From UHGV virus genome UHGV-0382128: DNA of 64,000 nt; one strand, 5' to 3'. Each line of letters opens with the position of its first letter. The first letter of the stretch is position 1. The position numbers and the translations under genes were made by a program. The notes under the pieces were generated by a model, which worked only from the letters and a program-made list of their open reading frames with translations, made no database searches and had not been told where the DNA came from. This DNA comes from a virus. This document shows, piece after piece, positions 45,606 to 64,000 of this stretch.

Positions 45606-45655
45606 AAAAGTAAAGCTACCCCTAGACCACACGGTCTAGGGGTAAACTATTTATT
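45606..45655. terminator. Bidirectional rho-independent terminator
   Basis: Stem cccctagacc / ggtctagggg (45619-45642) flanked by A-run and T-rich tract; between convergent genes. Confidence 0.75.
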
Positions 45656-46550
45656 TCCCACGATAAAATCCAGAGATGTAGCTTGGCGCTATCCATCGCC
45701 ATTCGCGCCAACGCATTTCTGACATTTTACCACACCATACACGCTTCCAATGAGCACGACGGATATGTGCTGCGCAATAAATCGCCAAACAAACCTCGTG
45801 TCCCTCCTTGCGTTGTTGTTCTATATCTTCCCATTGTACCGGACTTACGTCTAAAACGACCGCTTCACTACGTGGGCGAATCTCTGTATCAGGAACATAA
45901 CGAATGGTCCTCCCGCGAAATTCTTTCTTCTCACGTTCAGTTCGTTTAATTCGCGATGAAAGATATAGTCCGATATAGACGGCGTCGAGTAGTCGTTGAT
46001 TCTCCTTAACCGAAGTAAGGAGCGGCTTTAACTCCACGAAATCATCATTACTTTTATCGATCGTGTAAATCTCAAACTCCATGTATACCGACTCGTCATG
46101 TTCTTCGCATGACATCACAAAGAGAACTTCTTCACCTTCGTAAAGACGTCTTCCGATAAATAACGTGATTGGACATTCGTCGAGATTTACGGTAACCGAG
46201 AAAGTAAATGAAGGGATGGTTTCTATCCAGAAGTACGGGATATTTTTTAGTCTCTCAGTTTTTGCTAAGAGCGCCATCAGTTCTTCATCCGAGATGATTT
46301 CAACAGCAGCGTATTGCCATCCTAGTCCCAGGGACTGCTTAATCAGTCTGGGAATCTGTTCGGTAACGCCATATTCACGATAGGTCGGATCTTTAACTGG
46401 CATAAACGTTACGGGTATTTGTCGTTTATGCTCGTTAATGAACCGAATAAAACGGCACTGATCTAATCCGTGAATTGTTTGGTGTGCTTTTTCTATCTGT
46501 TCGCTCATGCGTCTTAGCGCTTTCCCGTAAAGTCTATTATTCGTTGTCAT
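45651..46550 (-). CDS. Paralog family A, member 1 (~299 aa; start revised to ATG at 46550)
   Basis: Track ORF 45651..46646 overlaps the upstream gene; the internal ATG (MTTNNRLYG...) is preceded by SD ggagca. C-terminal AAHIRRAHWKRVWCG...W.EWRWIAPSYISGF is shared with the neighbouring gene. Confidence 0.5.
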   Translation of the reverse strand: MTTNNRLYGKALRRMSEQIEKAHQTIHGLDQCRFIRFINEHKRQIPVTFMPVKDPTYREYGVTEQIPRLIKQSLGLGWQYAAVEIISDEELMALLAKTERLKNIPYFWIETIPSFTFSVTVNLDECPITLFIGRRLYEGEEVLFVMSCEEHDESVYMEFEIYTIDKSNDDFVELKPLLTSVKENQRLLDAVYIGLYLSSRIKRTEREKKEFRGRTIRYVPDTEIRPRSEAVVLDVSPVQWEDIEQQRKEGHEVCLAIYCAAHIRRAHWKRVWCGKMSEMRWREWRWIAPSYISGFYRGK

Positions 46551-46575
46551 TTTAATGCTCCTAAACACTTTTAGC

Positions 46576-47502
46576 TTAATTGTGGGGTACGTAGCCACGG
46601 ACAAATGTAGGTGGAATCCAACAAAGTTTTCTTTTTCTTTCCCCATCTCTTGGACCGACCCAATATCTGCGCCAGTGCGCGCGACGAATATGTGCGGCCT
46701 TGGCGTGTTTGATACCTTCCATGGTTTTCAAGTCGGTGTTAAATCCCTTTAGATATTTCACTTGTTCTGGTGTGATGTCTATTTTAACGTCACGTTCACG
46801 AGGTTTGATTTCGTGACTTATGCTACCATTCTTTTTGATTTCTTTGAACTTAATGTCATTGAAAGACCCTCTGAGATTGGGCGGGATTAGCGTACAGAGA
46901 AATATCAACGATATGGCGGTTTTGGCCAGTGATAACCATAACGTCTTCTCTTGTTCGGTCTGTACGCCAGTTGTATAATCGATTTCAACAAGCCCGTTTC
47001 CAACACTACATATCTCTAACGAGCAGGTGGCGATTGTGGTAACGCCTTCTGTTAACCCGTAATCAGTATTTGTAGCAATTATAATAAACCTTCTATTCCC
47101 ATTTTTTCGATAACCGAGAAAGAAAGTCTCATCTTCTTTACCTACATCGATTGCCACAGTCCAAGTAGGTATAAAGTCCAACCATTCTTCAGGGAATTTA
47201 CTGGGCATCTCAGTCTCGAAAACAAGTTCTCTAAGTGCTCGATCGGATATTAAGGAAGCACCACCGTATAGCCATCCGATCGCCAATGTTTGAGCGTGAA
47301 GGGAACGGGGATCTTTGAGACCTAACTCAGCATCGTAGGGTATAAAGGCATTAGTTAAATGCTTACGATTCTTTTTTATCCATTTCGAGACGGGATTTTC
47401 TTTTGTTTGGTTTTCTTCCATGACATTTTCTAGATGCTGACTCCCCATTTGTCTAAGGCAGTCTTTAATACCTTTTACTTTTTTACTTTTGTACAAATAC
47501 AT
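46576..47502 (-). CDS. Paralog family A, member 2 (308 aa)
   Basis: C-terminal AAHIRRAHWRRYWVG...LCWIPPTFVRGY and an internal block similar to the gene downstream; own SD aggaga after a terminator. Confidence 0.55.
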   Translation of the reverse strand: MYLYKSKKVKGIKDCLRQMGSQHLENVMEENQTKENPVSKWIKKNRKHLTNAFIPYDAELGLKDPRSLHAQTLAIGWLYGGASLISDRALRELVFETEMPSKFPEEWLDFIPTWTVAIDVGKEDETFFLGYRKNGNRRFIIIATNTDYGLTEGVTTIATCSLEICSVGNGLVEIDYTTGVQTEQEKTLWLSLAKTAISLIFLCTLIPPNLRGSFNDIKFKEIKKNGSISHEIKPRERDVKIDITPEQVKYLKGFNTDLKTMEGIKHAKAAHIRRAHWRRYWVGPRDGERKRKLCWIPPTFVRGYVPHN

Positions 47503-47520
47503 GGTATATTCTCCTAAAAT

Positions 47521-47560
47521 GGTTAAAAAAGATAGAGGGACGCTTTAGCGTCCCTCTAAG
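47521..47560 (-). terminator. Rho-independent terminator
   Basis: Stem agagggacgc / gcgtccctct, loop ttta, T-run on minus strand, then SD aggaga + ATG. Confidence 0.7.
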
Positions 47561-48046
47561 TCAATCATCTTCGGTAAGTTCAGGATGGTGGGTTTTTAAG
47601 TATCCCCATATCTGAATGGCGAGTGGCTCTTGATTTTCTAGAATCATCTGCTTTATTTTAGACTTCGACCCCCCATTCCAAATTTCCTTATAAAGTTTTC
47701 TCCATTCCTCACAAGCATAAAGAACGGTTGTTGTCGGATTTATAGGTAATGAACGATCGTTGTCTAAGAGTTTGACTGTACTATCTAGGATAATGTTAAG
47801 ACATGTTATTATATCTGCTTTTGACACGACAGACTTATCGGAGGGAAAGAAATTAGGCAGATGGCCCATTATAACGCTTTTATAGGTTATCGTAATAAAT
47901 TTACCCACGGCGGTTACCATCCATGGTTCAGCTTTTCTAGATACGTACAAATAAGATGGTAACTGTTTCTCTATTAAATCTATATGGTTTAAAAACAAGT
48001 GAGTAATAGCGCTATTACTCGGCTTAATGATGTTATTTATGTACAT
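47561..48046 (-). CDS. Paralog family B, member 1 (161 aa)
   Basis: Same length as the upstream gene and shared C-terminal block (...W.KLYKEIW...IQIWGYLKTHHPE vs ...WEKFYTRIW...LQLWEWLKANYP). Confidence 0.5.
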   Translation of the reverse strand: MYINNIIKPSNSAITHLFLNHIDLIEKQLPSYLYVSRKAEPWMVTAVGKFITITYKSVIMGHLPNFFPSDKSVVSKADIITCLNIILDSTVKLLDNDRSLPINPTTTVLYACEEWRKLYKEIWNGGSKSKIKQMILENQEPLAIQIWGYLKTHHPELTEDD

Positions 48047-48075: not shown

Positions 48076-48561
48076 CTATAGTGACACGTAAATAGGATAA
48101 TTAGCTTTCAGCCACTCCCATAGCTGTAAGGAAAGTAGGTTTTCATTACGTTCGATGATTTCCATGATTTCGTCCAAGTTAGAATCTTCAACCCAAATCC
48201 GGGTATAAAATTTTTCCCATTCCGGTTCTGTATAAGGGACTAGAGGAGTAGGGAATCGCTCCATGTGGTACGCATCAGAAACTTTCTTTAAGAACTCGTC
48301 GCGACCATGGCGTAGGCGTTGCCGAACGTCTGTTTCTGTTATGCGCTTGCTTGATAGATCGGAGAAGTCAAATAGGCTAAATATGTATTGCGTTAGACAC
48401 CGAGAAGAAAAGTAGGACGCGGCATAAGCCGCCATCCAAGGAGTGTCTGCAACCAACGGAGTCAACTTTTCTTCAATTTCTTTTCTTACACGTGTTTCGT
48501 TATTGAGAAATTCATGTACGATATCGCAGTTACGAATATCGAAGATATGATTTAAGTTCAT
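48076..48561 (-). CDS. Paralog family B, member 2 (161 aa)
   Basis: See family B member 1. Confidence 0.5.
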   Translation of the reverse strand: MNLNHIFDIRNCDIVHEFLNNETRVRKEIEEKLTPLVADTPWMAAYAASYFSSRCLTQYIFSLFDFSDLSSKRITETDVRQRLRHGRDEFLKKVSDAYHMERFPTPLVPYTEPEWEKFYTRIWVEDSNLDEIMEIIERNENLLSLQLWEWLKANYPIYVSL

Positions 48562-48562
48562 T

Positions 48563-49087
48563 TTACTGTCCTAAAATTGGGGTGAGTCTGTCTGCGGTGT
48601 TTAACAATGCTTTTGTAATTTCGTGGTTGGTCTCTTTTAGGATGGCGCAGCAGAGAGTGGTATAAACCTCGATTGCTAAACCGATTTCTTGTTCAGTCAG
48701 ACACGGTTCGGTGCCGCCAATCCCGTAACGCTGCGCTGCATACTCAATTTCAAGTTTCAAACGTTTTCGTAGTGCCTCGTCATCAGTTAAACGCGCGCAC
48801 GCCCGATCGAAACGTCTATTGTAAGCCTCGATCTTGTGGACAATTTCGCGTCGCAGTTGGTCGACCTTTACGTTATCATCAAGAGTGATGGTGACGTTGT
48901 CAACTAAACAGTAATGCACCGCGTGTCGTAAGTTGTGTAATGTGGCGGCAGTAACGACCCGCTCCTGATGGTCGCTAAAGCCGTGGGCACCACAGAGCTT
49001 GCGTGCAACCGCGCCAGAGATTTTCTCCTCTAACGCTATCGGCGTGGCAATGGTTGTTTTCTTACGAAGCTGAATTAAAATATCCAC
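48563..49087 (-). CDS. Hypothetical protein (174 aa)
   Basis: ORF abutting neighbours (operon-like spacing). Confidence 0.45.
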   Translation of the reverse strand: MDILIQLRKKTTIATPIALEEKISGAVARKLCGAHGFSDHQERVVTAATLHNLRHAVHYCLVDNVTITLDDNVKVDQLRREIVHKIEAYNRRFDRACARLTDDEALRKRLKLEIEYAAQRYGIGGTEPCLTEQEIGLAIEVYTTLCCAILKETNHEITKALLNTADRLTPILGQ

Positions 49088-49089: not shown

Positions 49090-49632
49090 TTATACTCCTT
49101 TAGGTTGTCCGTATTTTGACGATAGGTAGATGAGTTCAGCATGGCAGATTTTCTCAACTAACCCGAGTGTCTCAAGGAAAATATCCCGGATACGGGACAT
49201 CGTTTCGTTGGTAAGAATATCGCTCCAACATGTTGTGTCTATTATATCCGTCGTTGAAGATTGGCGCTGCAATATTGCGACATACACTTCGTCGAGGCTA
49301 TCTGGTGCATTATTCTGTAAGTAATGGGCGGCATGTAGAAAGGCTTTCTCAAGAATCAGCTGAATATCCGTATCGGGATCAGTTACCCGTACTAAATGCG
49401 GGTATGTCATAGCCGAACTGATTTTTATCACTAACTGCTCAACGAGGTTATTCACCATCGCTTCTGAATCCAGGATAGTAATATCAGCTCCATCGTGTTC
49501 TTCAGAAATCTTATTCTCATGCACTGCTATCGCATCGTGTAATTCAAACGCAACGCGACTTCGCATCTCACTTAACACTTTGTTTAATTTGTCCCGTGAC
49601 TCGCTGAGTGAGAAATCGATAAGTATTTTCAT
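49090..49632 (-). CDS. Hypothetical protein (180 aa)
   Basis: ORF; 1-nt overlap with the upstream gene. Confidence 0.45.
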   Translation of the reverse strand: MKILIDFSLSESRDKLNKVLSEMRSRVAFELHDAIAVHENKISEEHDGADITILDSEAMVNNLVEQLVIKISSAMTYPHLVRVTDPDTDIQLILEKAFLHAAHYLQNNAPDSLDEVYVAILQRQSSTTDIIDTTCWSDILTNETMSRIRDIFLETLGLVEKICHAELIYLSSKYGQPKGV

Positions 49633-50375
49633 TATACGTACTCCTGATAAATTGGCCGACCCCGATCTTCTCGAATCTGGCAGTATGTTACAACAATACC
49701 GTTAGGGATTTGTGCGCCGCTGTCTTCAAGGTAAATAACGCCCGTAGCTTCACAGAGATAAAACGACCACAATCGTGAGATACCAAGCCGTGCGTTCTCG
49801 TAGTGACTGAATGGCCAGAAACCACAGTGAATCTCATCATAGTCTCCCCGTTCTATCCCGTAAGCAATCATTTCTTTTTCCCACAACGTACATTCAGCGT
49901 CGTAAGTCGAAAACCAGAAACCAACGAGATTCTTTGTCCGCTTAACGTTCATTAAGTCGTTATAAATGGGAAAGAGTGCTTTATTGAAATTTTCTAACAT
50001 CTCTGGAGAGAATAGAAAATTCATGTAGTATTCTAGCCATTGATAAACGGCTTCCCAGACATCTTCAGAAGAGAAATGTTCGAATACGGCGTCATCGCAA
50101 TCGTAGTTATCGAAGATCCCTGAGAGATCTATTTCGACGACGCCGCGAAGGTCAAAGTTTCTGTTGGTATTGACAGCGTCAATAACCTCAGCGATGAGAC
50201 GAGTAAAGACGATTGTGCAGGCGGTTTGTGCGGTATAAAAGAATTCTCCTTGTACGGTTGACCACTTCGGGTCCTTCAAATGTTCATTGAAGTATTGTGG
50301 CCAAATTTTATAAAAGATTCCCTCGAACAACGAGGGATTGATACGTTGTAATTGAGGGACATAAACTTTTAGCAT
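49632..50375 (-). CDS. Hypothetical protein (247 aa)
   Basis: ORF only. Confidence 0.45.
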   Translation of the reverse strand: MLKVYVPQLQRINPSLFEGIFYKIWPQYFNEHLKDPKWSTVQGEFFYTAQTACTIVFTRLIAEVIDAVNTNRNFDLRGVVEIDLSGIFDNYDCDDAVFEHFSSEDVWEAVYQWLEYYMNFLFSPEMLENFNKALFPIYNDLMNVKRTKNLVGFWFSTYDAECTLWEKEMIAYGIERGDYDEIHCGFWPFSHYENARLGISRLWSFYLCEATGVIYLEDSGAQIPNGIVVTYCQIREDRGRPIYQEYV

Positions 50376-50411: not shown

Positions 50412-51080
50412 CTATCTAAGAATATTTTTAATGAAAAAAGGATCGGCTGTAAACTCCTTCACTTGTGAGTCATAACCCGAATGTATTTGATCGCTACTGA
50501 GCAAATACTGGTCTAGGTCGTGCGGAAGAATCCAAGAATCACCTTGCTTAAAAATACCATAATCTGCTGTTCCTGCGGAAAAAATGATTTCCTCTGGAAA
50601 CGAATAGACACGGCGTAAGGCAAGATCGGATGGCTTTAACACGATTAATCGAACGGGATGTTGACTGACTGCCTCTTTAATAAACTGTTCACGATTAAAC
50701 CAAATTATTTTTTCGGGGTAAGTTTCGAATTCAGCCCATGCCCGCGTGATAACTAATTTGGAAATCTTTCTCAATTCTTCAGAACGCTCTGCGTAGCCGA
50801 TGCACTCCTTGCGTACTTCATGATTTTCTATCGATGTTGTGAATTTTTGGAATAGGTGTTGTTGGAAAAAGCCGTTCTCCGGGATATCACAACCCGCGTT
50901 GTATAGTGCTATGATCTCCCACAACAACGAAAGAGAAAACACAAATGCTAACTTTTCCACAACTTCCCAATCTTCGGAGTAAGGGGCTTTAAAGCCCCAA
51001 TACTGCCGTGCGTTATACATAAAGTGAGTTTGTAAAAACCGAGGGGCTTTTGACAAGACCTCACTATAAACGATCAGCAT
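50412..51080 (-). CDS. Hypothetical protein (222 aa)
   Basis: ORF; 7-nt overlap with the RNase H gene. Confidence 0.45.
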   Translation of the reverse strand: MLIVYSEVLSKAPRFLQTHFMYNARQYWGFKAPYSEDWEVVEKLAFVFSLSLLWEIIALYNAGCDIPENGFFQQHLFQKFTTSIENHEVRKECIGYAERSEELRKISKLVITRAWAEFETYPEKIIWFNREQFIKEAVSQHPVRLIVLKPSDLALRRVYSFPEEIIFSAGTADYGIFKQGDSWILPHDLDQYLLSSDQIHSGYDSQVKEFTADPFFIKNILR

Positions 51081-52594
51081 TCAAGCTCCTTATCCGTCAA
51101 TATTCGTTTGTTTGAATAATAGCCGCACCACAAACCATGATATTTTTCCCCGATATAAACCAACGCGTATTCGATATACTGCCGTTCTGGACGACGTACA
51201 GCCACGTAAAACCGCCCTTCCGGTTCTTTGATACGGTTGATTTCCGTACGCGTCGGTATGTCGATACCTCGAGTAAGGATAGCTTTAACCTTGTTTTTAC
51301 TACCAGGGATCTTGATGGTTACGTCAAAACCTTTATCTACGTTACGATAAATGTCTTTCTTCGGCTTACCTTTCTCATCGTAAAGTACGTCAGTAATGTC
51401 ATTCAACACTACTGAGTTTTTCCCTTCCATGGCATCGCGTAACCAACCTGCAAGCTCATCACGAATCGCAATACAACGATAAGATAATAGCGCAGGACGA
51501 AGAATTCGTGTAATCGAAAGATCTTCAAACATCCACAGGTTTTTGTCTTCACTAAAATGCATCCGATCGATAGGAATGCCGTTAGCAGCGGCTTCTGCGA
51601 ACTTCTTGCGCTTTACGAATAAGTTAAAAACAACGGCGATTGGATCAAATTGACGTAAACGGGGCACCCCTTCCCACGCTTTCGCAGAATGGGTATTTAC
51701 CAACTCGTATACGTTATCCCACGGTTCTTTGGTAAACATTACGCAGAATTGTGCATCTGGAATGTACTTACCAACGAAGACGATATCATCCTTCTGTTTT
51801 GCGTGGTTTCCACCGAACATGTAATAAAGTTTATTACCGTTAACTGTAACAGTGGGGTGAGGCTCGTTCACCATCGGGTAACAGAACTTCGTAACACAGA
51901 TATCGGGAAAAGTGGACAAATTGACACCCTCACCAACAACTTCCGGTTGCTGTTCTTCCTCAGGCAGTTCGTCTTTTGACCAATACGGTGTATAGTCTAA
52001 CCCCTCCCCTCGGGCAGAGATAATTGAGCCTTTCCGCGCTAACTCGTCTGCGCGTTCGTTTCCATAACGTCCAGAGTGGCCTTTAATTTTAAGGACACGA
52101 ACACCTTTCCCTTCTTTCTTTAAGCGCTGTTTAACCACCCACATCCGTTGGATTAATTCCAGATTCGCAATAGGTGTACCGTCCGCACGACGCCAACCAC
52201 GTGCTGCCCAACCATCAATCCAGTCGTTATACGTGTTGACAACGTAAGATGCGTCGATATAGATAACGTAGTTTTTGGCAACGAAGGGGGCGTGTTCGAA
52301 GACGGTCAGGAAAGCCACGAGTTCTGCAACGTCGGAGTGTGACATTTTTGGTACAGGAACAACTCCGTCAATAAACTCCACGGTTTCTGGTAAAGGCGGA
52401 AGTTTTTCATCTTTGTTTATCTGGCGGTATCCTGACGTCGTAATCCCCTCGGGAATAGTGGGATGGCGGTAAACCCGACCATCCTCAATCGCTTCACGAT
52501 TAAATAAGTATCCATGAATCCCCGCCCCTGTACCGAGCGGGGAGGTCAAATGGCTACCGTCCGTGTAAATTACTGCAACATCAACGTTCTTCAT
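51074..52594 (-). CDS. RNase H (RNase HI-like) domain fused to a ~310-aa C-terminal domain of unknown function (506 aa)
   Basis: N-terminus carries the full RNase HI pattern: IYTDGS, AELVAF, IYIDASYVVN...W..GW, IKGHSGRYGNERADELARKG (cf. E. coli RnhA FTDGS...E...STDSQYV...VKGHAGHPENERCDELAR). Confidence 0.8.
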   Translation of the reverse strand: MKNVDVAVIYTDGSHLTSPLGTGAGIHGYLFNREAIEDGRVYRHPTIPEGITTSGYRQINKDEKLPPLPETVEFIDGVVPVPKMSHSDVAELVAFLTVFEHAPFVAKNYVIYIDASYVVNTYNDWIDGWAARGWRRADGTPIANLELIQRMWVVKQRLKKEGKGVRVLKIKGHSGRYGNERADELARKGSIISARGEGLDYTPYWSKDELPEEEQQPEVVGEGVNLSTFPDICVTKFCYPMVNEPHPTVTVNGNKLYYMFGGNHAKQKDDIVFVGKYIPDAQFCVMFTKEPWDNVYELVNTHSAKAWEGVPRLRQFDPIAVVFNLFVKRKKFAEAAANGIPIDRMHFSEDKNLWMFEDLSITRILRPALLSYRCIAIRDELAGWLRDAMEGKNSVVLNDITDVLYDEKGKPKKDIYRNVDKGFDVTIKIPGSKNKVKAILTRGIDIPTRTEINRIKEPEGRFYVAVRRPERQYIEYALVYIGEKYHGLWCGYYSNKRILTDKELEC

Positions 52595-53371: not shown

Positions 53372-53418
53372 CGTTAAAAAGAAAGGCCCTCCTGTACCTC
53401 GAAGGGTACAGGAGGGAG
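53372..53418 (-). terminator. Rho-independent terminator
   Basis: Stem ccctcctgtaccc / gggtacaggaggg, loop tcgaa, T-run on minus, then SD aggaga + ATG. Confidence 0.7.
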
Positions 53419-56409: not shown

Positions 56410-56455
56410 AAAAGATTACCCTACTCCTTCGGGAGTAGGGTAGCTTTTATTTTAA
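56410..56455. terminator. Bidirectional rho-independent terminator (CCCTACTCC family)
   Basis: Stem taccctactcc / ggagtagggta, loop ttcg, then gcttttatttt; between convergent genes. Confidence 0.8.
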
Positions 56456-57015: not shown

Positions 57016-57054
57016 ATGGAAAAAGAATTAACCCTACTCCCGGAGGAGTAGGGG
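57016..57054 (-). terminator. Rho-independent terminator (CCCTACTCC family)
   Basis: Stem ccctactcc / ggagtaggg, loop cgga, T-run on minus, then SD aggag. Confidence 0.7.
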
Positions 57055-57061
57055 ACTTAAA

Positions 57062-58059: not shown

Positions 58060-58539
58060 TTAAAATAAAGGCAAGTTACGCCATTGTCCTACCGAGTAAA
58101 AAGCTTTTGGATGTTTACGGATATACGCTTTCGCTTCTTCTGGCAACCAACGGTCACCTACCAGTTTTTGTTGTGCAACAATTACTGCCATCAACAAATA
58201 CGGGTTTTTCGCACCGGGAAACTTTGCATTGGTTTCTAGCGCAATATCCAACATTGACGACCAGCCCAGTAATTTATGTTGCGCCGGTAAACGTTCTTCA
58301 ATATACATCAGCCACTTCATGATTTGTTTAGGCTTATACGGACAGGTATAATTCGCCCAACAGACCATGACGAACTTAATAGCCTTCGCAATCACCCATA
58401 CAGGGACAGTCACGAAAAGGCAGAAAATAGCCAACTGCGAGGCGGGCGCTTCGACAAAAGTAACCGCTACAAGAACCATACACAGTTCAAGTACCACAAA
58501 CCAAAAACGTGTCGGATAACGCCAAATGAATTTTATCAT
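58060..58539 (-). CDS. Membrane protein with two or three N-terminal TM helices (159 aa); holin-like candidate
   Basis: Hydrophobic FWFVVLELCMVLVAVTFV and LAIFCLFVTVPVWVIAKAIKFVMV; two genes upstream of the endolysin-like SLT gene. Confidence 0.4.
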   Translation of the reverse strand: MIKFIWRYPTRFWFVVLELCMVLVAVTFVEAPASQLAIFCLFVTVPVWVIAKAIKFVMVCWANYTCPYKPKQIMKWLMYIEERLPAQHKLLGWSSMLDIALETNAKFPGAKNPYLLMAVIVAQQKLVGDRWLPEEAKAYIRKHPKAFYSVGQWRNLPLF

Positions 58540-58547: not shown

Positions 58548-58590
58548 TCCTTTAGGGAATGAAAATAAAAGTACCCCTTACTCCGTATAG
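58548..58590 (-). terminator. Rho-independent terminator
   Basis: Stem accccttac / gtaaggggt (~11 bp), T-run on minus, then SD aaggag. Confidence 0.7.
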
Positions 58591-58605
58591 GGTAAGGGGT
58601 AGAGG

Positions 58606-59115
58606 TTAGAAGAACGGCTGGTTTGGAATGACAGCGTACTCTAAAATGAACATGTGTTCTGGGGCGTCTTCTTTACGCCAGACTTTGTGTGTCGACACAA
58701 GTTTTTCCAGAATCGTTAAGAAACTGCGCTGGCAGTATGTGTTTTCACCAAGCAGTAGATTTTGAAGTTCTACAGTAGCGTCCATATACGCCTGTTTAAA
58801 GACTAAATTACGGTTATACTGCCCGGTAAAATTCCAAAGCAAGACTTTCCCTTCTTCGGTTTCTTTTACCGTTGGTCGTAAACCACAAATCCACAGTAAG
58901 GCAAGGTTGACGTTCCAGTCAAACTCTAAACCTTCTTCTTCGTCATCACCGAATGCTGTGGGTAAAGCATCGTAAAATTCGTGTTTCTCTGCGAATTCTT
59001 CATCCGACTTAATCTCGTCTTCGATACTGCTTCGGACGATACTGTAAACGTCTTTCGCGGTCAATTGTGCGGCTTTTGTAATGCCTTTATACCAATCGGT
59101 TACTACGATGCTCAA
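58606..59115 (-). CDS. Hypothetical protein (169 aa)
   Basis: ORF overlapping the SLT gene by 4 nt. Confidence 0.45.
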   Translation of the reverse strand: MSIVVTDWYKGITKAAQLTAKDVYSIVRSSIEDEIKSDEEFAEKHEFYDALPTAFGDDEEEGLEFDWNVNLALLWICGLRPTVKETEEGKVLLWNFTGQYNRNLVFKQAYMDATVELQNLLLGENTYCQRSFLTILEKLVSTHKVWRKEDAPEHMFILEYAVIPNQPFF

Positions 59116-59837
59116 AGGGTAACTCCTCTATTGATTGGAAAACTCGTGTTTATCGTATCCCAAATTCTACTAACTTCCGCCAGTTGAATCTGACGTGGTG
59201 TTTTCTTCGCAAACGCAAGCTGACGTGGGGCCGAGCCCACAACAACAGGCACATCGATTTTCGCGCTATAGAACGCGGCGTCTTTCATAAAGCCTGCCAT
59301 TTCTCGTTGTGCTGCTCGAGATTTGCTTTTGATTCGCGTGTGAGCGCCACTTTCACCCCAGTGGTAAGCTAACGCAATTTCAGCCATGGTGGGCTTGCGT
59401 TTGAGTCGTTTGGTTAACCCCCTCTCAAGATGTTTAACATACGCGGCAGCCAGCAAAACAGCATTACGCGGATTATATAAATCGGCGTTCTGACTAAGAC
59501 CTAATTCTTTTCCATAAAGCCTTAGCAGATTACGCTTGGTACTTGGAAGCATCTGTACCAGGCTGTGTGCTCGTGAGCTTTTGTTGTAAGCCTTGGGATC
59601 AAAACGTGATTCGCGATAAATCAGCGTAATCATCAGCTTAGGATCAACGCCTTGCTTTCGTGAGATTTCCACAATTAACGGGCTGACTTTTTCGAACCGA
59701 TGTTGGATTTGTGCAAACTCACGCTGATGCTTAGAATGTGGCGTTGACGTTGACGCCTGTGCGTTAAACGCGAAAAGTGTTACCAGTAAAAGAAAGAAGA
59801 TACGAAACATTTTGTTTCTCCAGTTGGATTTATACAT
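59112..59837 (-). CDS. Signal-peptide-bearing lytic transglycosylase (SLT domain), endolysin candidate (241 aa)
   Basis: N-terminal MFRIFFLLLVTLFAFNAQAS; SLT core LIYRESRFDPKAYNKSSRAHSLVQMLPST...LLAAAYVKHL (catalytic Glu-Ser and the SxxGxxQ block). Confidence 0.7.
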   Translation of the reverse strand: MYKSNWRNKMFRIFFLLLVTLFAFNAQASTSTPHSKHQREFAQIQHRFEKVSPLIVEISRKQGVDPKLMITLIYRESRFDPKAYNKSSRAHSLVQMLPSTKRNLLRLYGKELGLSQNADLYNPRNAVLLAAAYVKHLERGLTKRLKRKPTMAEIALAYHWGESGAHTRIKSKSRAAQREMAGFMKDAAFYSAKIDVPVVVGSAPRQLAFAKKTPRQIQLAEVSRIWDTINTSFPINRGVTL

Positions 59838-59910: not shown

Positions 59911-60471
59911 CTATTTAAAAGAGTTTGGAATTAATGACTCTGCTTCTTGGTACAACTTATCAGGTAAGTATAACGTGTAGCACTGCCTCCTCGGTTCAAG
60001 TTTTTTGTAAAGCCACAAAAAGATTTCTTGTCTTTCCCAGGAATCTAACCACCCATTTGCCATTCCCAGTGGAGGGATAGCAACGCTGGTATTCAGATCC
60101 TCAGCACAGTCTGCTAGTGCGCTAATGCCCGCAGTAACATAAGAAACCTGTGACTTTAAACGCCAATGGGTTTTCGTGGGGAGCAAGATACACTTTTCAT
60201 CAGAGTAAACGTAAACGCTTCCAATCTTAATTTCGTCTTCACGACACCGCTTACGATAATCCTGATAAAGGTTGGGGTAGCGTTCACGGCACGCCAGTGC
60301 AATACCGCGACCCATCGCTCCTACGCAGTTAATGGTAACGACTTTATAGTCTTCGGGTGCATTAAAAAGATCGTTACCAATTTCAGATTCTTTACGTACC
60401 GTTAACATAACGAAACGTCCGGAGTTGGTGTGTAGTATTAAAACGTGTACCGCCGATTGATAGCTCGACAA
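59911..60471 (-). CDS. Putative macro-domain (ADP-ribose binding/processing) protein (186 aa)
   Basis: VVTINCVGAMGRGIALACRERYP (glycine-rich loop as in macro domains) and later VAIPPLGMANGWL; by eye only. Confidence 0.45.
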   Translation of the reverse strand: MSSYQSAVHVLILHTNSGRFVMLTVRKESEIGNDLFNAPEDYKVVTINCVGAMGRGIALACRERYPNLYQDYRKRCREDEIKIGSVYVYSDEKCILLPTKTHWRLKSQVSYVTAGISALADCAEDLNTSVAIPPLGMANGWLDSWERQEIFLWLYKKLEPRRQCYTLYLPDKLYQEAESLIPNSFK

Positions 60472-60495
60472 GTATAGCGATATATGTTTTACCCA

Positions 60496-60864
60496 TTATC
60501 GATTTTTCGTAATCCATTGCTTGACCGCCGCTTCTAAACCTTCGTGTTGTAAGCCCAGGCGTTGCATAGTCAGTGCCAGGTTGAGCGTGTGTACAACCTG
60601 TTCACGGAACTGATGATCGTTCATACGGTCCCAGACCTTCTCTACTGAAATGTTGTGTTTCCAGAGCAAATAAGCTTCGCGACACGATGCGCGACGAACC
60701 AAGCTGGGTTTAACAAAAGGCAACTCGATTTCAGGCAAGTAACCTAAAAGCTTAACTAGCGGCGTTACTTGCGTCTTACCGAAGTCACCGCACTGATAAC
60801 AAATTTGCAGAATATCAATTTCATTCAACGGTATACCGTAAATTGATGGGTTCTCTGTGAACAT
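60496..60864 (-). CDS. Hypothetical protein (122 aa)
   Basis: ORF only. Confidence 0.45.
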   Translation of the reverse strand: MFTENPSIYGIPLNEIDILQICYQCGDFGKTQVTPLVKLLGYLPEIELPFVKPSLVRRASCREAYLLWKHNISVEKVWDRMNDHQFREQVVHTLNLALTMQRLGLQHEGLEAAVKQWITKNR

Positions 60865-61132
60865 TCATATTCTCCTCAGGCTCGAAATGTGATTCGGGTG
60901 GCAATGTCCCTAAAGCCCCTTGGATACAAGCCGTCAGCGTAGGTTTGCCAAAACAGACCTTACCTATTGTCCCCACATTGGGATGTTGTAAGAACGCTTT
61001 TGCACGTTCGTATTCCTTCCAACAAATACTCGTATCCAAACCACCCACTCCGTACGATTTTAACATAATTAGCTCTCCTGACGTAAATTTCTCACACTCA
61101 TAGTGAGGTACGTCAGGAGAGCTTGATTGTTT

Positions 61133-61582
61133 TTAGAATGTTTTGCTAAAATCGACCCACTCACGATCGTGCGAGTAAACCGCCTGATAGCCGCGTCGGA
61201 TGAAATACTCTTTTGCTTCTTTACATTTCGCATACATGCCAGTAACAATCTCACCGAAAACTTCATCAGCTGCAATTGCTTTGAAAATCTCTTTCATTAC
61301 ACCCCGTTGACGATAGTCTGGGAGCACGTATACCGAACGTATCTTAAGTGAACCGTTACGATTCCGATAACTACAGTATCCTACCGCGACATCATCCTGA
61401 TACACCAGAACTATGCAGTTACCTTCGATCAGCTGTCGCGCATTTAACTTCGGCACCGACGTTTTGATTTTCAGTAACGTGGCCTGGTGGTCTAAGTAAC
61501 GGTAGTGTAGTTTGAGTAAATCGGCAGCTTGTCGCTCACCGACTTTAGAAGATGCGTTCAACAAATAAATTTCCATTTGCAA
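61133..61582 (-). CDS. GNAT-family N-acetyltransferase (149 aa)
   Basis: Motif A-like IRSVYVLPDYRQRGVMKEIFKAI. Confidence 0.55.
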   Translation of the reverse strand: MQMEIYLLNASSKVGERQAADLLKLHYRYLDHQATLLKIKTSVPKLNARQLIEGNCIVLVYQDDVAVGYCSYRNRNGSLKIRSVYVLPDYRQRGVMKEIFKAIAADEVFGEIVTGMYAKCKEAKEYFIRRGYQAVYSHDREWVDFSKTF

Positions 61583-61608
61583 ACCTTAGAGACGCAAAAA
61601 AAGTAAAA

Positions 61609-61737
61609 TTAAAACCAACGCGCGATGACGAATGCCGCAGCGGCTAATATGGCCGTGGTGATTATTAATCCACCCCATGAAAGTTCCGCATCGTATAATG
61701 CGGATATCGCTACATTCGTAGTGTTTATCGAGGTCAT
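61609..61737 (-). CDS. Small hydrophobic peptide (~41 aa), not in the ORF track
   Basis: Hand translation MTSINTTNVAISALYDAELSWGGLIITTAILAAAAFVIARWF with SD aggagc; coordinates approximate. Confidence 0.3.
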   Translation of the reverse strand: MTSINTTNVAISALYDAELSWGGLIITTAILAAAAFVIARWF

Positions 61738-61794
61738 TTTCTGCTCCTAGTAATACCCTCACGCCGGAGGGTATCTTCTGGATTATTTGGGTGG

Positions 61795-61893
61795 TTAATC
61801 TTCGAACGCCCAACGGTGTCGTTTAATCAGCCAGTTTAAACCTTTACCAATTAACCACAACGAGCCAAGTGTTAACAGAACCCCTACAACCAT
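61795..61893 (-). CDS. Small hydrophobic peptide (~32 aa), not in the ORF track
   Basis: Hand translation MVVGVLLTLGSLWLIGKGLNWLIKRHRWAFED with SD aggagaggg; coordinates approximate. Confidence 0.3.
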   Translation of the reverse strand: MVVGVLLTLGSLWLIGKGLNWLIKRHRWAFED

Positions 61894-61903
61894 ATTCCCT
61901 CTC

Positions 61904-62083
61904 CTAATTCCGCCATTCGCATTCGCGTTGACGCCAAATTGAACCCCACGATAGTTTAATCAGATAAGATGAAACTACCCATAAAATCATCACCACACAA
62001 AACATGACATAAAGAACCGCTAGAATGGACATGAAGCCAAACCCTGCCGCATCCACAATACGACGGAACCAATCAGTTTGCAT
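61904..62083 (-). CDS. Small membrane protein (~59 aa)
   Basis: Track ORF 61904..62089 begins at a TTG; ATG at 62083 (MQTDWFRRIVD...) has SD aggag. TM FGFMSILAVLYVMFCVVMILWVV. Confidence 0.35.
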   Translation of the reverse strand: MQTDWFRRIVDAAGFGFMSILAVLYVMFCVVMILWVVSSYLIKLSWGSIWRQRECEWRN

Positions 62084-64000
62084 AAACAATTTTTACTCCT
62101 TCGTTATACACCGCAGGCAATGTCACTCCTTCCGGTTCGATGACACAGTACGATGCTTCATTAAGTTTAGAATGGACCTCAGCTTCGTGGGAAACTACCA
62201 AGAGTTGTGAAAATTCTCCCGAGTTTGCTAACGTTTTAATAAAGCCGACCAGGTTATTACGGTGTTCCTCGTCCATGCCTTCCGAAGGCTCATCCAAAAG
62301 CAACGGAAACTGATGCAACTTCAGCGCTTTGTACGCAGTCAGTCTGAACATCAGATTAAATATAGCACGCTGTGCCTTAGACCCTTTACGCACGTCAGGA
62401 ACAGGCTCAGGGTGCGTTTTTAGCTGGACAGGAAAAGTATAATCCAAATCGCCGTCAGTGAGATCACAGGGCATAACACGCATGGGGTACGTCCAGACCT
62501 GTTCGATATAACGCGTCATTAACTCTGTGATTCTAACGATAGCGTTGTAAAAATACTTTCTAAGTACACCCTTTTCTGGCGAGAAGGCTTGAATCATCAG
62601 TTTGTTATTGAACTGCTGGGCTTGTAAGTCAGCAAGTTCACGTTCCAAACTGTTGAGTTGGTTCAATTCATTTTCCATCTGACGATAACGCTCGCGTGCG
62701 GTTGTAAAAGCATCCAGCTTCCCTTCCCGCACTCGTAAGAGTTCCTCGACGACCGTATTTGTCAACGTAACCTTAACATCACTCTCTAACCGTTCGAATA
62801 ACGCACTGAAATCATCTACAGCACGTTTAACATTCACTAGATAGGTAAGTGTCGTGTTAGCCAGTTCGTGCTCTCTACGACGCATTGAGAGCATCTCTGT
62901 GGCTTTACCTAATCGCGACTGTTGGAAGGCGATTTTCTGTTGTAAAGCACCATCGACGTTACCAACGGCCGCTACGGCATCCTGCCATTCTTTTTCCGCT
63001 TTCACTAACCGTTGTCGGGTTTCATGGTACTCAATAGCAGAGTACAATTCACCGTCAAACGCTGCACATAGACTCCCGAACTGCTCGCGAGATTCTGTGA
63101 AAACGTTACGTTCTTGCAAACGCTTAAAGAACATGCTCAATATCGGGTCCTTTGAATACGTCAGCACAATCTCACGAACCTGCCGCATATAAGTTACATC
63201 AGATTCTAATTCAACACGATCGCGTAATAAGGTCTCTAGCTGTGTTTGAAGTTCCGTCCGTTGCTGCTGTTGACCACGAATCGATGACTCGAGTTCAGGT
63301 AAAGAACGCGTAACACCTGGCCGAAACTTAAACCGACACTGCGGACAATCCACTTCTGCCGTTTCTAAGTAGTGGTTACGTTCGTGATTTAAATTCTGTA
63401 AAACGTTCTCCACTCGCTGGAGTCTATCCCGTAATCCTGCGGTTTTTTGATCCATCACCAGAAGACGTTCTTCCAAAACATTGAGTTTCTCGGTTGAATG
63501 AATAGCGTCCAGTGTTGTTCCCAACCGTTGTCCCCAAACACGCGCATCGGTAGCCGCACGAAGTTGGTCTAAATTAACGTTATCGTTAAATAAACCTGGA
63601 AAGAGATGTTCGGTGTCCCACTTGGTAAGTAACTCACGTAAACGTGCCAGTGTGTTCTTGAGACCTTCGTGGTTCCGCATCAGGTAGTCTTGTCGTGTTG
63701 ACTCATCCATCAATAGCGATAAATCTTTATTCAACATCGATACCTCTGTTTCGGTAGAAACGACGGCTTCGCGGGCTGTCGCTTCATTTTGTCGGGCGGC
63801 CAGTATCTGTTCATCAGTAGGCAACCCACCACGATGTTGTAATATTGCGTCGATGGTTGGACCCAAACCGTTTAATAACGCTTGGATTGTTTCGATCGTG
63901 ACAGCACGATTTAATCCTGGCAACTGTTCGATTTCTCGGTTCAGTTCACGTAAATCCGATTCCAAACCTTTTAATCTCGTTGCTAATTGTTGTCGTTCTT
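62073..64000 (-). CDS. SbcC/Rad50-like recombination-repair ATPase, partial (N-terminus outside right edge)
   Basis: Long coiled-coil with zinc-hook-like CPQC (DCPQCRFKF), C-terminal FPLLLDEPSEGMD (Walker B/D-loop). Reading frame is open from 64000; the track start at 63965 is a TTG. Confidence 0.6.
   Translation of the reverse strand, partial: ERQQLATRLKGLESDLRELNREIEQLPGLNRAVTIETIQALLNGLGPTIDAILQHRGGLPTDEQILAARQNEATAREAVVSTETEVSMLNKDLSLLMDESTRQDYLMRNHEGLKNTLARLRELLTKWDTEHLFPGLFNDNVNLDQLRAATDARVWGQRLGTTLDAIHSTEKLNVLEERLLVMDQKTAGLRDRLQRVENVLQNLNHERNHYLETAEVDCPQCRFKFRPGVTRSLPELESSIRGQQQQRTELQTQLETLLRDRVELESDVTYMRQVREIVLTYSKDPILSMFFKRLQERNVFTESREQFGSLCAAFDGELYSAIEYHETRQRLVKAEKEWQDAVAAVGNVDGALQQKIAFQQSRLGKATEMLSMRRREHELANTTLTYLVNVKRAVDDFSALFERLESDVKVTLTNTVVEELLRVREGKLDAFTTARERYRQMENELNQLNSLERELADLQAQQFNNKLMIQAFSPEKGVLRKYFYNAIVRITELMTRYIEQVWTYPMRVMPCDLTDGDLDYTFPVQLKTHPEPVPDVRKGSKAQRAIFNLMFRLTAYKALKLHQFPLLLDEPSEGMDEEHRNNLVGFIKTLANSGEFSQLLVVSHEAEVHSKLNEASYCVIEPEGVTLPAVYNEGVKIVYAN

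What the first reader, a model, noticed from the sequence alone, without database searches (positions are those of the whole stretch)
45606..62090. Accessory region of tandem diverged paralogs, macro-domain and GNAT genes, each insulated by hairpin terminators
Between about 45.6 and 62 kb the genome changes character. It holds three pairs of adjacent, clearly related but strongly diverged genes (families A, B, C), many small ORFs without recognisable function, a macro-domain gene, a GNAT acetyltransferase and small membrane peptides. Nearly every gene or pair is followed by its own hairpin terminator and preceded by a strong SD. Tandem paralog expansion with rapid divergence is typical of host-takeover and anti-defence arsenals, so this is the most likely place in the window for an undescribed phage-host interaction system.
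Basis: inference. Interest (0 to 1): 0.7.

Follow-up and report, generated by a model that had tools for sequence, protein, structure and literature searches.

The report
Jumbo-phage backbone block with counter-defence genes
This 16-kb stretch is not a free-standing accessory island but a conserved gene block of an SPN3US-like jumbo phage; embedded in it are an already characterised anti-DarT macrodomain gene (AdfM), a fast-evolving hot spot with two diverged AcrVA2/FinQ-family genes whose targets are unknown, and a lineage-specific orphan gene family.

Summary
The observed features are mostly real. BLASTP confirms three adjacent paralog pairs. The macro and GNAT domains, small membrane peptides and strong Shine-Dalgarno sites are also confirmed. 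Only about nine hairpins serve 26 genes, so "nearly every gene" is overstated.

The region is syntenic with SPN3US gp186-214, Asesino gp207-236 and Huxley gp197-227. About 17 of 26 genes have same-order orthologues. These include an essential tail protein (gp203) and a virion protein (gp202).

The anti-defence reading holds for parts of the region:
- The macro gene is the orthologue of AdfM, a chimallivirus anti-DarT2 DNA de-ADP-ribosylase described in 2026.
- Family A is a tandem pair of AcrVA2/FinQ-family proteins. They carry the invariant H-x-R…H motif that AcrVA2 needs, while their N-terminal parts evolve fast.
- The family A pair forms a terminator-flanked cassette in a hot spot that varies even within one phage species.
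- Family B is a hypervariable five-helix-bundle family with one or two copies, found only in this phage clade.
- In family C, C2 is the SPN3US gp201 orthologue and C1 is an extra copy of its N-terminal domain. Function is unknown.

Verdict: new members of known kinds inside a known backbone. The targets of the AcrVA2-like pair are unknown and the hosts probably lack Cas12a. Interest is moderate.

The parts
45617..45644 (.). Bidirectional hairpin terminator between the head-protein gene (SPN3US gp214 orthologue, 44850-45605 +) and A1
   Evidence: 12-bp stem with T-runs on both strands. A hairpin sits at the same position in SPN3US, Asesino, Huxley and the E. coli 98232 element.
45651..46550 (-). 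A1, AcrVA2/FinQ-family protein (299 aa from the Met with an AGGAG SD; the ORF extends to 46646)
   Evidence: BLASTP to A2 E=9e-19. phrog_6160. The orthologue in L005 carries Pfam PF26125 AcrVA2-like. The H-x-R..H motif is invariant. Only 64% identical to orthologues in close relatives whose core genes are 85-97% identical.
46576..47502 (-). A2, AcrVA2/FinQ-family protein (308 aa)
   Evidence: phmmer against PDB hits AcrVA2 7ci1 at E=1.7e-4. The family profile hits it at E=1.6e-6 over AcrVA2 residues 98-317. PF26125 is recorded on homologues P0001-3. H271/R273/H276 are invariant. dN is 0.28 in residues 1-225 and 0.04 in residues 226-308.
47533..47558 (-). Hairpin terminator separating the long operon from the A2-A1 cassette
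   Evidence: 11-bp stem followed by TCTTTTTT. An equivalent hairpin lies upstream of the AcrVA2-like gene in Asesino, EC001, ChrisDB and the E. coli 98232 element.
47561..48046 (-). B1, clade-restricted 161-aa protein
   Evidence: Paralog of B2. Present in L014 (83% identity) and absent from L005, L006 and L012. No Pfam or PHROG match.
48076..48561 (-). B2, clade-restricted 161-aa protein, predicted five-helix bundle
48563..49087 (-). p174, variable-slot protein of unknown function
   Evidence: No homologue in SPN3US, Asesino or Huxley. 84-86% identical in clade relatives. Absent from the E. coli 98232 element.
49090..49632 (-). p180, orthologue of SPN3US gp212; conserved across genera but fast-evolving
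   Evidence: phrog_8379. Orthologues in all three genera. Only 60% identical in close relatives, dN 0.28.
49632..50375 (-). p247, orthologue of SPN3US gp209
   Evidence: phrog_8219 E=2e-63.
50412..51080 (-). p222, orthologue of SPN3US gp208; fast-evolving
   Evidence: phrog_9472. 57% identical in close relatives, dN 0.33.
51074..52594 (-). RNase H-domain ribonuclease (SPN3US gp207 orthologue)
   Evidence: PF00075 E=2e-20. phrog_3265 E=3e-168. 64-67% identical to SPN3US and Asesino.
52597..53331 (-). 3'-5' exonuclease (SPN3US gp206 orthologue)
   Evidence: PF16473; phrog_255.
53387..53416 (-). Hairpin terminator after p152
   Evidence: 13-bp stem plus T-run. Same position in SPN3US and Asesino.
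53421..53879 (-). p152, protein with an N-terminal hydrophobic signal-like segment (SPN3US gp205 orthologue)
   Evidence: phrog_8165. Hydrophobic segment at residues 1-22. Orthology.
53880..54383 (-). p167, single-pass membrane protein (SPN3US gp204 orthologue)
   Evidence: phrog_8719. Transmembrane-length segment at residues 30-51. Orthology.
54409..55782 (+). Virion (tail-associated) structural protein, orthologue of essential SPN3US gp203
   Evidence: phrog_3293 E=3e-172. 78% identical to SPN3US gp203. gp203 is essential and tail-associated (PMC5105663) and detected in the virion by mass spectrometry.
55786..56409 (+). DUF7194 virion protein, orthologue of SPN3US gp202
   Evidence: PF23824 E=7e-72. 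60% identical to gp202. gp202 is in the SPN3US virion proteome.
56416..56443 (.). Bidirectional hairpin terminator between the tail module and C1
   Evidence: Conserved position in SPN3US, Asesino and Huxley.
56452..57000 (-). C1, 182-aa copy of the N-terminal domain of C2
   Evidence: BLASTP to C2 E=1.5e-8. hhalign 89% probability. Aligns only to the N-terminal ~180 residues of C2/gp201. 91% conserved in the clade, dN/dS 0.11. No counterpart detected in SPN3US, Asesino or Huxley.
57032..57053 (-). Hairpin terminator between C2 and C1
   Evidence: 9-bp stem followed by a T-rich tail.
57062..58006 (-). C2, orthologue of SPN3US gp201 (non-virion, function unknown)
58060..58539 (-). p159, membrane protein in a variable slot
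   Evidence: Hydrophobic stretch at residues 8-62. No orthologue by BLASTP in the three genera. Weak phrog_20030 match.
58572..58601 (-). Hairpin terminator after p169
   Evidence: 12-bp stem plus CTTTTATTTT. Same position in SPN3US and Asesino.
58606..59115 (-). p169, orthologue of SPN3US gp199
   Evidence: phrog_8114 E=8e-76.
59112..59837 (-). Lytic transglycosylase (SLT domain) with an N-terminal hydrophobic signal-like segment, orthologue of SPN3US gp198
   Evidence: PF01464. phrog_4067. Hydrophobic segment at residues 10-31.
59911..60408 (-). AdfM orthologue: DarG-like macrodomain, anti-DarT2 DNA ADP-ribosyl glycohydrolase (probable start at Met22 of the ORF that runs to 60471)
   Evidence: PF01661. 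PDB DarG macrodomains 5m3i E=1e-25 and 5m31 E=2e-20. NCBIfam antitoxin_DarG E=1.7e-35. 40% identical to PhiKZ gp104 at E=2e-29 with the catalytic Asn conserved. 60% identical and syntenic to Asesino gp217, one of the AdfM proteins tested in PMC13309987.
60496..60864 (-). p122, orthologue of SPN3US gp194
   Evidence: phrog_11720.
60821..61066 (-). p81, orthologue of SPN3US gp192
   Evidence: phrog_28329.
61071..61123 (-). Long hairpin (15-bp outer stem) between GNAT and p81, without a T-tail
   Evidence: MFE -32.8 kcal/mol for the 66-nt spacer. Not called by the terminator scan.
61133..61582 (-). GNAT acetyltransferase, orthologue of SPN3US gp191; substrate unknown
   Evidence: PF00583/PF13508. 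phrog_3810. No PDB sequence match at E<=0.01, so no link to AcrVA5. Only sub-threshold NCBIfam hits.
61609..62089 (-). Three small membrane-peptide ORFs (61609-61737, 42 aa; 61795-61893, 32 aa; 61904-62083/62089, 59-61 aa) with a hairpin at 61752-61775
   Evidence: Each has a hydrophobic segment of at least 19 residues. Positional equivalents of SPN3US gp187-190 and Asesino gp208-211 with little or no sequence similarity. Hairpin seen.

Best explanation
The stretch is part of the conserved, mostly non-virion gene backbone of a previously unclassified ~222-228-kb SPN3US-like jumbo phage. Its relatives include Asesino, which forms a phage nucleus.

The backbone part carries nucleic-acid enzymes (RNase H-domain ribonuclease, 3'-5' exonuclease, flanking UvsX-like and SbcC/SMC proteins), a two-gene virion (tail) module on the opposite strand, a lytic transglycosylase with a signal-like N-terminus, and membrane proteins. 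Individual counter-defence genes are embedded in this backbone. They are separate genes, not one system.

1. The macro gene is AdfM. By orthology it removes DarT2-made ADP-ribose from thymidines in phage DNA and so neutralises DarTG2 defence. The family function is shown experimentally elsewhere and is inferred here.

2. The slot next to the gp214 head gene holds a terminator-flanked cassette of two old, diverged AcrVA2/FinQ-family genes.
- Both keep the C-terminal H-x-R…H motif that AcrVA2 needs to destroy its target's mRNA.
- Their N-terminal and middle parts evolve fast.
- The inferred mechanism is that each paralog recognises the nascent polypeptide of a different host or rival-element protein and triggers loss of that mRNA during translation in the cytoplasm.
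- The known enterobacterial hosts are not known to have Cas12a, so the targets are something else.

3. The adjacent B genes are a clade-restricted five-helix-bundle family. Copy number and sequence vary between near-identical phages, which is the signature of an arms-race gene. The mechanism is unknown, and the most likely role is a stoichiometric inhibitor of a variable host protein.

4. C2 is the orthologue of SPN3US gp201, and C1 is an extra copy of its N-terminal domain that is retained under purifying selection. Function is unknown.

The hairpin terminators are real and positionally conserved. They divide the region into about nine transcription units rather than insulating every gene.
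For: Synteny and orthology:
- Searches show about 17 of 26 genes in the same order in three genera.
- In the SPN3US virion proteome, only gp193, gp202, gp203 and gp214 of gp186-214 are virion proteins.

AdfM:
-, plus PMC13309987.

AcrVA2 family:
- Precomputed PF26125 on orthologues of both A1 and A2.
- phmmer hit to 7ci1 at E=1.7e-4. Profile hit at E=1.6e-6 covering AcrVA2 residues 98-317.
- Invariant H271/R273/H276 correspond to AcrVA2 H286/R288/H291, whose mutation abolishes Cas12a mRNA knock-down.
- AcrVA2 homologues are usually found where Cas12a is absent, including on megaphages.

Hot spot:
- The AcrVA2-like gene is present in EC001 and absent from SPN3US, which belong to the same species.
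- Distribution is patchy: 19 of 50,697 phage records.
- B1 and p174 show presence/absence variation among clade members.
- dN is 0.2-0.6 for A1, A2 and B2 against 0.02-0.09 for core genes. Within A2, the N-part dN is 0.28 and the C-part dN is 0.04.
- The cassette is flanked by hairpins in five phages.

B family restriction. B fold.
Against: - No function was tested here. All roles rest on homology or evolutionary pattern.
- The local Pfam hmmscan did not report PF26125 for A1, A2, P0001 or P0003 even at E<=5. The Pfam assignment therefore rests on precomputed hits.
- Similarity to AcrVA2 is strong only in the C-terminal ~40 residues.
- How AcrVA2 destroys mRNA is itself unresolved.
- dS is saturated, so positive selection could not be shown.
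- B and C have no informative structural neighbours.
- Absence of Cas12a from the hosts is background knowledge and was not tested.
- Fast evolution alone does not prove an anti-defence role.
Confidence: 0.7

Rival explanations
1. One reading: the whole 45.6-62 kb stretch is an accessory arsenal built by recent tandem paralog expansion, and it hides an undescribed phage-host interaction system.
For: Three paralog pairs are present. Many genes have no known function. G+C is lower than in the structural half of the window. The 45.6-51 kb part is truly hypervariable. B is an orphan family.
Against: About 17 of 26 genes are conserved in order across three genera. An essential tail gene and a virion gene lie in the middle. 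The two genes with recognisable anti-defence homology belong to described families (AdfM, AcrVA2). The A1/A2 split is at least as old as the genera, and C1/C2 are 83-92% conserved in the clade. The genes fall into about nine separate transcription units with no sign of acting together.
Confidence: 0.12
2. The AcrVA2-like pair acts in competition between mobile elements or in the phage's own gene regulation, as FinQ does when it lowers F-plasmid transfer-gene mRNA. It would not be directed against host immunity.
For: FinQ is an AcrVA2 homologue that inhibits F conjugation and lowers transfer-gene mRNA. The clade is repeatedly assembled as a circular ~222-kb extrachromosomal element in E. coli and Enterobacter isolates, where it would meet plasmids. 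The hosts are not expected to have Cas12a.
Against: tblastn of A2 against 72,556 plasmids found only the mis-filed phage and no FinQ-like plasmid gene at E<=0.01, so A is not especially close to FinQ. A fast-evolving recognition part and within-species presence/absence fit either reading equally well.
Confidence: 0.2
3. The paralog pairs are ordinary fast-drifting genes of low importance (relaxed constraint after duplication) with no interaction role. The region is simply backbone plus junk.
For: No domain or fold assignment for B and C. dS is saturated, so no positive selection could be demonstrated.
Against: All copies are intact ORFs, and five of the six have an SD-like motif (B1 has none). 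Residues are invariant across 31 B sequences and 10 A sequences. dN/dS is well below 1 where measurable: C1 0.11, C2 0.31, A2 0.19. The AcrVA2 functional motif is strictly kept in both A copies. The A pair is retained in all six clade members examined.
Confidence: 0.08

Closest known systems
AcrVA2 (Moraxella bovoculi prophage anti-CRISPR; PDB 7CI1/7CI2; Pfam PF26125 AcrVA2-like) and its homologue FinQ
   Same: Similar length (~300 aa). Sequence homology is detectable by phmmer and by profile search. The C-terminal H-I-R-R-x-H-W…W-x-P motif is identical, including the three residues required for activity. The N-terminal part is divergent, as reported between AcrVA2 and FinQ. The genes are carried on a mobile element in hosts that probably lack Cas12a, which is the common situation for the family.
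   Different: There are two tandem, deeply diverged copies (23% identity) instead of one. They are encoded by a lytic SPN3US-like jumbo phage of Enterobacterales rather than a temperate Moraxella phage. No AcrVA1-like partner and no Aca-type regulator were detected nearby. The target is unknown and almost certainly not Cas12a. Fold and activity were not tested here.
AdfM (anti-DarT factor macro; PhiKZ gp104, Asesino gp217; Morgan et al., Cell Rep 2026, PMC13309987)
   Same: Single DarG-like macrodomain of ~165 aa. 60% identical and syntenic to Asesino gp217 and 40% identical to PhiKZ gp104. The catalytic Asn is conserved. The best PDB and NCBIfam matches are DarG.
   Different: Nothing substantive. 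It is a new orthologue in an unclassified phage. Activity and nuclear localisation are not tested for this protein.
SPN3US gp186-gp214 gene block (Seoulvirus), with its Asesino gp207-236 and Huxley gp197-227 equivalents
   Same: Same gene order and strands. Terminators lie at the same intergenic positions. The tail genes gp202/gp203 sit on the opposite strand in the same place.
   Different: The window lacks homologues of SPN3US gp193 (a head protein), gp195, gp200, gp210 and gp211. It adds A1, A2, B1, B2, p174, C1 and p159.
Moron-like accessory cassettes and variable hot spots at fixed backbone positions in phage genomes (general concept, from background knowledge)
   Same: A gene or gene pair bounded by its own terminator is inserted at a fixed backbone junction, and it is present or absent among otherwise near-identical genomes.
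   Different: This is a lytic jumbo phage, not a temperate one. No sigma-70-type promoter was found in the ~30-nt spacer between the upstream terminator and A2, so the expression signal is unknown.

Membership tests
AcrVA2/FinQ family (Pfam PF26125) | Significant sequence similarity to AcrVA2 or to the family model | tested here: met
   Precomputed PF26125 hits (unmarked, so E<=1e-5) on orthologues of A2 and A1. phmmer with A2 against AcrVA2 7ci1 gives E=1.7e-4. The 10-sequence profile gives E=1.6e-6 over AcrVA2 residues 98-317. Caveat: the local Pfam hmmscan returned nothing.
AcrVA2/FinQ family (Pfam PF26125) | Conserved C-terminal H-x-R…H residues (AcrVA2 H286, R288, H291) required for mRNA and protein knock-down | tested here: met
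   H271, R273 and H276 (A2 numbering) are invariant in A1, A2 and eight homologues. They align to HIRRGHW of AcrVA2. The functional role of these residues comes from bioRxiv 10.1101/2022.11.29.518452.
AcrVA2/FinQ family (Pfam PF26125) | Three-domain fold of PDB 7CI1 | not tested
AcrVA2/FinQ family (Pfam PF26125) | Binds the nascent N-terminal polypeptide of a specific target and triggers translation-dependent loss of its mRNA | not testable with these tools
   Requires expression, RNA-seq and pull-down experiments.
Anti-CRISPR type V-A (functional class) | Inhibits Cas12a in a host that carries a type V-A system | not testable with these tools
   Clade members occur in Salmonella, Shigella, E. 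coli and Enterobacter assemblies. From background knowledge these taxa lack Cas12a. I therefore do not file A1/A2 as anti-CRISPRs, only as members of the protein family.
AdfM (chimallivirus anti-DarT factor macro) | Stand-alone macrodomain most similar to DarG macrodomains | tested here: met
   PF01661. 5m3i E=1e-25 and 5m31 E=2e-20. NCBIfam antitoxin_DarG E=1.7e-35 on the macro part only.
AdfM (chimallivirus anti-DarT factor macro) | Orthology to characterised AdfM proteins and a conserved catalytic Asn (PhiKZ gp104 N23) | tested here: met
   40% identity at E=2e-29 to gp104, with the Asn aligned. 60% identical and syntenic to Asesino gp217, which localises to the phage nucleus.
AdfM (chimallivirus anti-DarT factor macro) | Removes DarT2 ADP-ribose from ssDNA, rescues DarT2 toxicity, and is imported into the phage nucleus | not testable with these tools
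   Shown for PhiKZ AdfM. Localisation is shown for the Asesino, PhiKZ and PhiPA3 proteins. Not shown for this protein.
Accessory (non-core) genomic island | Presence/absence variation of the block among related genomes | tested here: not met
   For the block as a whole, about 17 of 26 genes are conserved in order in three genera. The feature is met only for sub-slots: A, B1, p174, and C1, p159 and the small peptides.
Intrinsic terminators insulating each gene | GC-rich hairpin plus T-run after nearly every gene or pair | tested here: not met
   Seven strong hairpins have T-tails and two lack them, for 26 genes. One unit holds eight genes. The hairpins that exist are positionally conserved in relatives.
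SPN3US virion paralog families A, B and C (Thomas lab) | Homology to SPN3US gp53/54, gp83/138-154 or gp168-170 | tested here: not met
   Those families map elsewhere in SPN3US. The window's families match phrog_6160, no PHROG, and phrog_11818/gp201 respectively. gp201 is not in the virion proteome. The shared letters A, B and C are a coincidence.

The most novel reading that the evidence does not exclude
The two deeply diverged AcrVA2-like proteins are polypeptide-specific gene silencers. Each would be aimed at a different, non-Cas12a defence or housekeeping protein of Enterobacterales. Their fast-evolving N-terminal parts would set target specificity. The neighbouring hypervariable B proteins would belong to the same arms-race locus. 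If so, a phage whose relatives shield their DNA inside a phage nucleus would extend its counter-defence to co-translational destruction of host mRNAs in the cytoplasm. Natural plus/minus pairs (EC001 against SPN3US) in a genetically tractable host would allow the first non-CRISPR targets of this family to be identified.
Probability: 0.3. Interest if true: 0.75.

Novelty: new member of a known kind. Interest (0 to 1): 0.45.

Why it matters
AcrVA2 is the only known bacterial case of a protein that recognises a nascent polypeptide and eliminates its mRNA. Its many homologues in genomes without Cas12a have no known targets. SPN3US-like phages of Salmonella and E. coli have genetic tools and natural isolates that differ by the presence of this gene. 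A conserved tandem pair with divergent recognition regions is therefore a practical entry point to that open question.

The analysis also shows that what looks like an accessory island in raw sequence is a conserved jumbo-phage backbone with single counter-defence genes and one narrow hot spot. This is useful calibration for reading such genomes.

Tried and rejected
- Local Pfam scans of A1, A2, P0001 and P0003 at E<=0.01 and E<=5 found nothing. The AcrVA2 link came from precomputed annotations and PDB searches.
- hhalign tests of whether B, p174, SPN3US gp213, gp212, Huxley gp226 and Asesino gp234 form one superfamily gave no pair above 61% probability. The idea was dropped.
- GNAT against AcrVA5: no PDB sequence match at E<=0.01, and only sub-threshold ArsN2/RimI NCBIfam hits. 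The substrate remains open.
- dN/dS for positive selection: dS is saturated (>1 or undefined), so only dN contrasts are reported.
- The idea that C1 was duplicated together with its terminator: the shared stem CCCTACTCC also occurs at 36557-36584, and similar stems occur in the terminators of the related phages. It is not evidence of co-duplication.
- tblastn of A2 against plasmids to find FinQ returned only a mis-filed phage genome.
- Sigma-70 promoter scan: fewer sites than in shuffles (24 against 36). This is uninformative, and from background knowledge phages of this group use their own RNA polymerases.

Full report
**Identity of the window**

The region has no close DNA match among 50,697 phage records; only a ~280-620-bp stretch of the tail gene aligns, at 70-75%. 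Its proteins place it among SPN3US-like jumbo phages. The RNase H-domain protein is 64-67% identical to those of Erwinia phages Asesino and phiEaH2 and Salmonella phage SPN3US.

Closer relatives exist only as unannotated assemblies:
- Contigs of 200-228 kb in Logan, ENA and NCBI assemblies of Salmonella, Shigella and E. coli.
- Two complete circular "plasmids", Enterobacter ludwigii NZ_CP134650.1 (222,441 bp) and E. coli 98232 NZ_CP173450.1 (221,873 bp).

**Check of the observation**

All-against-all BLASTP confirms three adjacent paralog pairs:
- A: 45651-46646 / 46576-47502, 23% identity, E=9e-19.
- B: 47561-48046 / 48076-48561, 26%, E=6e-15.
- C: 56452-57000 / 57062-58006, 27%, E=1.5e-8.

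Pfam confirms the macro (59911-60471) and GNAT (61133-61582) domains. It also finds RNase H, an Rv2179c-like exonuclease, an SLT transglycosylase and DUF7194. Three ORFs of 32-61 aa at 61609-62089 each have a membrane-span-length hydrophobic segment, and p159, p167, p152 and the SLT protein have transmembrane or signal-like segments. An SD-like motif precedes 21 of 26 starts.

The terminator claim is overstated. Strong hairpins occur at about nine places, and eight consecutive genes (53331 down to 47561) share one unit. The hairpins that exist are real features, because they recur at the same intergenic positions in SPN3US, Asesino and Huxley.

The "change of character" at 45.6 kb is not supported. 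G+C is already low from about 30 kb, and gene order runs on unbroken into conserved neighbours.

**What the region is**

Annotated regions of Huxley, SPN3US and Asesino and reciprocal BLASTP show that the stretch corresponds to SPN3US gp186-gp214. About 17 of 26 genes have orthologues in the same order and orientation in all three genera.

Published SPN3US data show that, within gp186-214, only gp193, gp202, gp203 and gp214 are virion proteins. gp203 (tail-associated), gp214 (head-associated) and gp186 are listed among the essential genes (PMC5105663; PMC5694885 Supplementary Table 1). The window's + strand genes 54409-55782 and 55786-56409 are the gp203 and gp202 orthologues (78% and 60% identity).

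The block is therefore conserved backbone, mostly non-virion, with a small virion module inside it. The SPN3US "virion paralog families A, B and C" in the literature lie elsewhere in that genome and are unrelated to the pairs here.

**The macro gene**

Its best PDB matches are the DarG macrodomains of M. tuberculosis and T. aquaticus (E=1e-25 and 2e-20), and NCBIfam gives antitoxin_DarG at E=1.7e-35.

A 2026 paper (PMC13309987) names the chimallivirus macrodomain protein AdfM. It shows that PhiKZ gp104 removes DarT2 ADP-ribose from DNA and protects the phage from DarTG2. It also shows that the Asesino protein localises to the phage nucleus.

The window protein is 60% identical and syntenic to Asesino gp217. 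It is 40% identical (E=2e-29) to PhiKZ gp104, with the catalytic Asn conserved. This part of the finding is already explained.

**Family A**

Homologues P0001-P0003 and their neighbours carry the precomputed Pfam family PF26125, "AcrVA2-like". My local Pfam scan did not reproduce this, so I tested the link independently:
- phmmer with A2 against all PDB sequences returns only AcrVA2 (7ci1, E=1.7e-4).
- A ten-sequence family profile returns AcrVA2 at E=1.6e-6 over residues 98-317 of 323.
- The motif H-I-R-R-A-H-W is invariant in A1, A2 and all homologues. It aligns with AcrVA2 H286/R288/H291, the residues whose mutation abolishes Cas12a mRNA and protein knock-down while preserving binding (bioRxiv 10.1101/2022.11.29.518452).

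That study proposes that AcrVA2 recognises the nascent N-terminal polypeptide of Cas12a and triggers translation-dependent mRNA loss. It notes about 1,800 homologues, mostly in Cas12a-free bacteria, on plasmids and megaphages, including FinQ. The C-terminal parts are conserved and the N-terminal parts diverge.

The window pair fits that pattern. A1 and A2 share 23% identity. Between close relatives the first 225 residues of A2 have dN 0.28 and the last 83 residues have dN 0.04. A distance tree places A1 outside the group formed by A2 and the single-copy genes of Asesino, EC001 and ChrisDB. The split is therefore old and is not a recent tandem duplication.

**The hot spot**

The AcrVA2-like gene is found in only 19 phage records, always as a single copy.
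- It is present in EC001, JN03, SaP7 and Lh1B but absent from SPN3US, where a 62-bp spacer occupies the site. EC001 is classified in the same species as SPN3US.
- In the window, Asesino, EC001, ChrisDB and the E. coli 98232 element the gene or genes are bracketed by hairpins on both sides. SPN3US has only the single bidirectional hairpin.

Among clade members whose core proteins are 85-97% identical to the window's:
- A1 is 64% identical, A2 68-90%, the B2-type gene 39-68%, p180 60% and p222 57%.
- B1 is present only in L014, and p174 is missing from the E. coli 98232 element.

The sub-region of about 45.6-51 kb is therefore a true diversity hot spot. dS is saturated, so formal positive selection could not be shown.

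**Families B and C**

C2 is the orthologue of non-virion SPN3US gp201 (hhalign 98.5%). C1 aligns only to its N-terminal ~180 residues and is well conserved in the clade (91%, dN/dS 0.11). The C2 model is mediocre and has no structural neighbour. The functions of B and C remain unknown. For B, an inhibitor of a variable host protein is the most likely role. That is inferred from its evolutionary pattern alone.

**Comparison and verdict**

The region is not an accessory arsenal or a single undescribed system. It is a conserved SPN3US-type backbone block. It does contain one already characterised counter-defence gene (AdfM), one terminator-bounded cassette of two AcrVA2/FinQ-family genes in a variable hot spot, and one clade-specific orphan family.

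I classify it as new members of known kinds. The most interesting open point is the target of the two AcrVA2-like proteins in hosts that are not expected to have Cas12a. That absence is background knowledge and was not tested here.

Noticed in passing
whole window; L015 (NZ_CP134650.1) and L016 (NZ_CP173450.1): Close relatives of this phage are deposited as complete circular ~222-kb 'plasmids' of Enterobacter ludwigii (gull cloaca) and E. coli 98232 (human urine). Many ~220-228-kb contigs also occur in Salmonella, Shigella and E. coli isolate assemblies. This is an unclassified clade of SPN3US-like jumbo phages that seems to persist with cultured isolates and is mis-filed as plasmids.
   Followed up: partly
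window 36557-36584, 56417-56442, 57030-57055: The same palindromic hairpin arm TACCCTACTCC recurs at three intergenic sites. Terminator stems of SPN3US, Asesino and Huxley use very similar sequences (CTACCTACTCC, TACCCACTCC). The terminators look like a sequence family and not just generic GC hairpins.
   Followed up: partly
window 49090-49632 (p180) and 50412-51080 (p222): These two genes are conserved in position across three genera (SPN3US gp212 and gp208). Among close relatives they are only 57-61% identical, against 85-97% for neighbouring core genes. They evolve as fast as the AcrVA2-like genes but have no annotation.
   Followed up: no
window 53421-54383 and 59112-59837: A single-pass membrane protein (p167) and a protein with a signal-like N-terminus (p152) form their own terminator-bounded unit. 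An SLT transglycosylase with a signal-like N-terminus lies nearby. All three are conserved in relatives. They may form an envelope or lysis module, but p152 has no lipobox, so it is not a classical spanin pair.
   Followed up: no
window 45651-47502; against 34: The local Pfam-A hmmscan gave no hit for A1, A2 or their 90%-identical homologues even at E<=5. The collection's precomputed annotation lists PF26125 (AcrVA2-like) as an unmarked hit (E<=1e-5). The model may be missing from the local library.
   Followed up: partly
window 60408-61133 compared with L002 4519-5037: SPN3US gp193, a head protein detected by mass spectrometry and conserved in Huxley (gp204), has no homologue in the window or in Asesino. 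Even a virion component is dispensable or replaceable in this block.
   Followed up: no
window 46551-46646: The longest ORF for A1 (331 aa) overlaps the end of A2 by 71 nt. The probable true start is the Met at 46550, preceded by AGGAG, giving 299 aa. Orthologues are called at 294 aa.
   Followed up: yes
window 62073-63965: The SbcC/SMC-like gene (orthologue of SPN3US gp186, listed among its essential genes) is truncated as an ORF call at 630 aa, whereas relatives are ~836 aa. Its true start was not examined.
   Followed up: no
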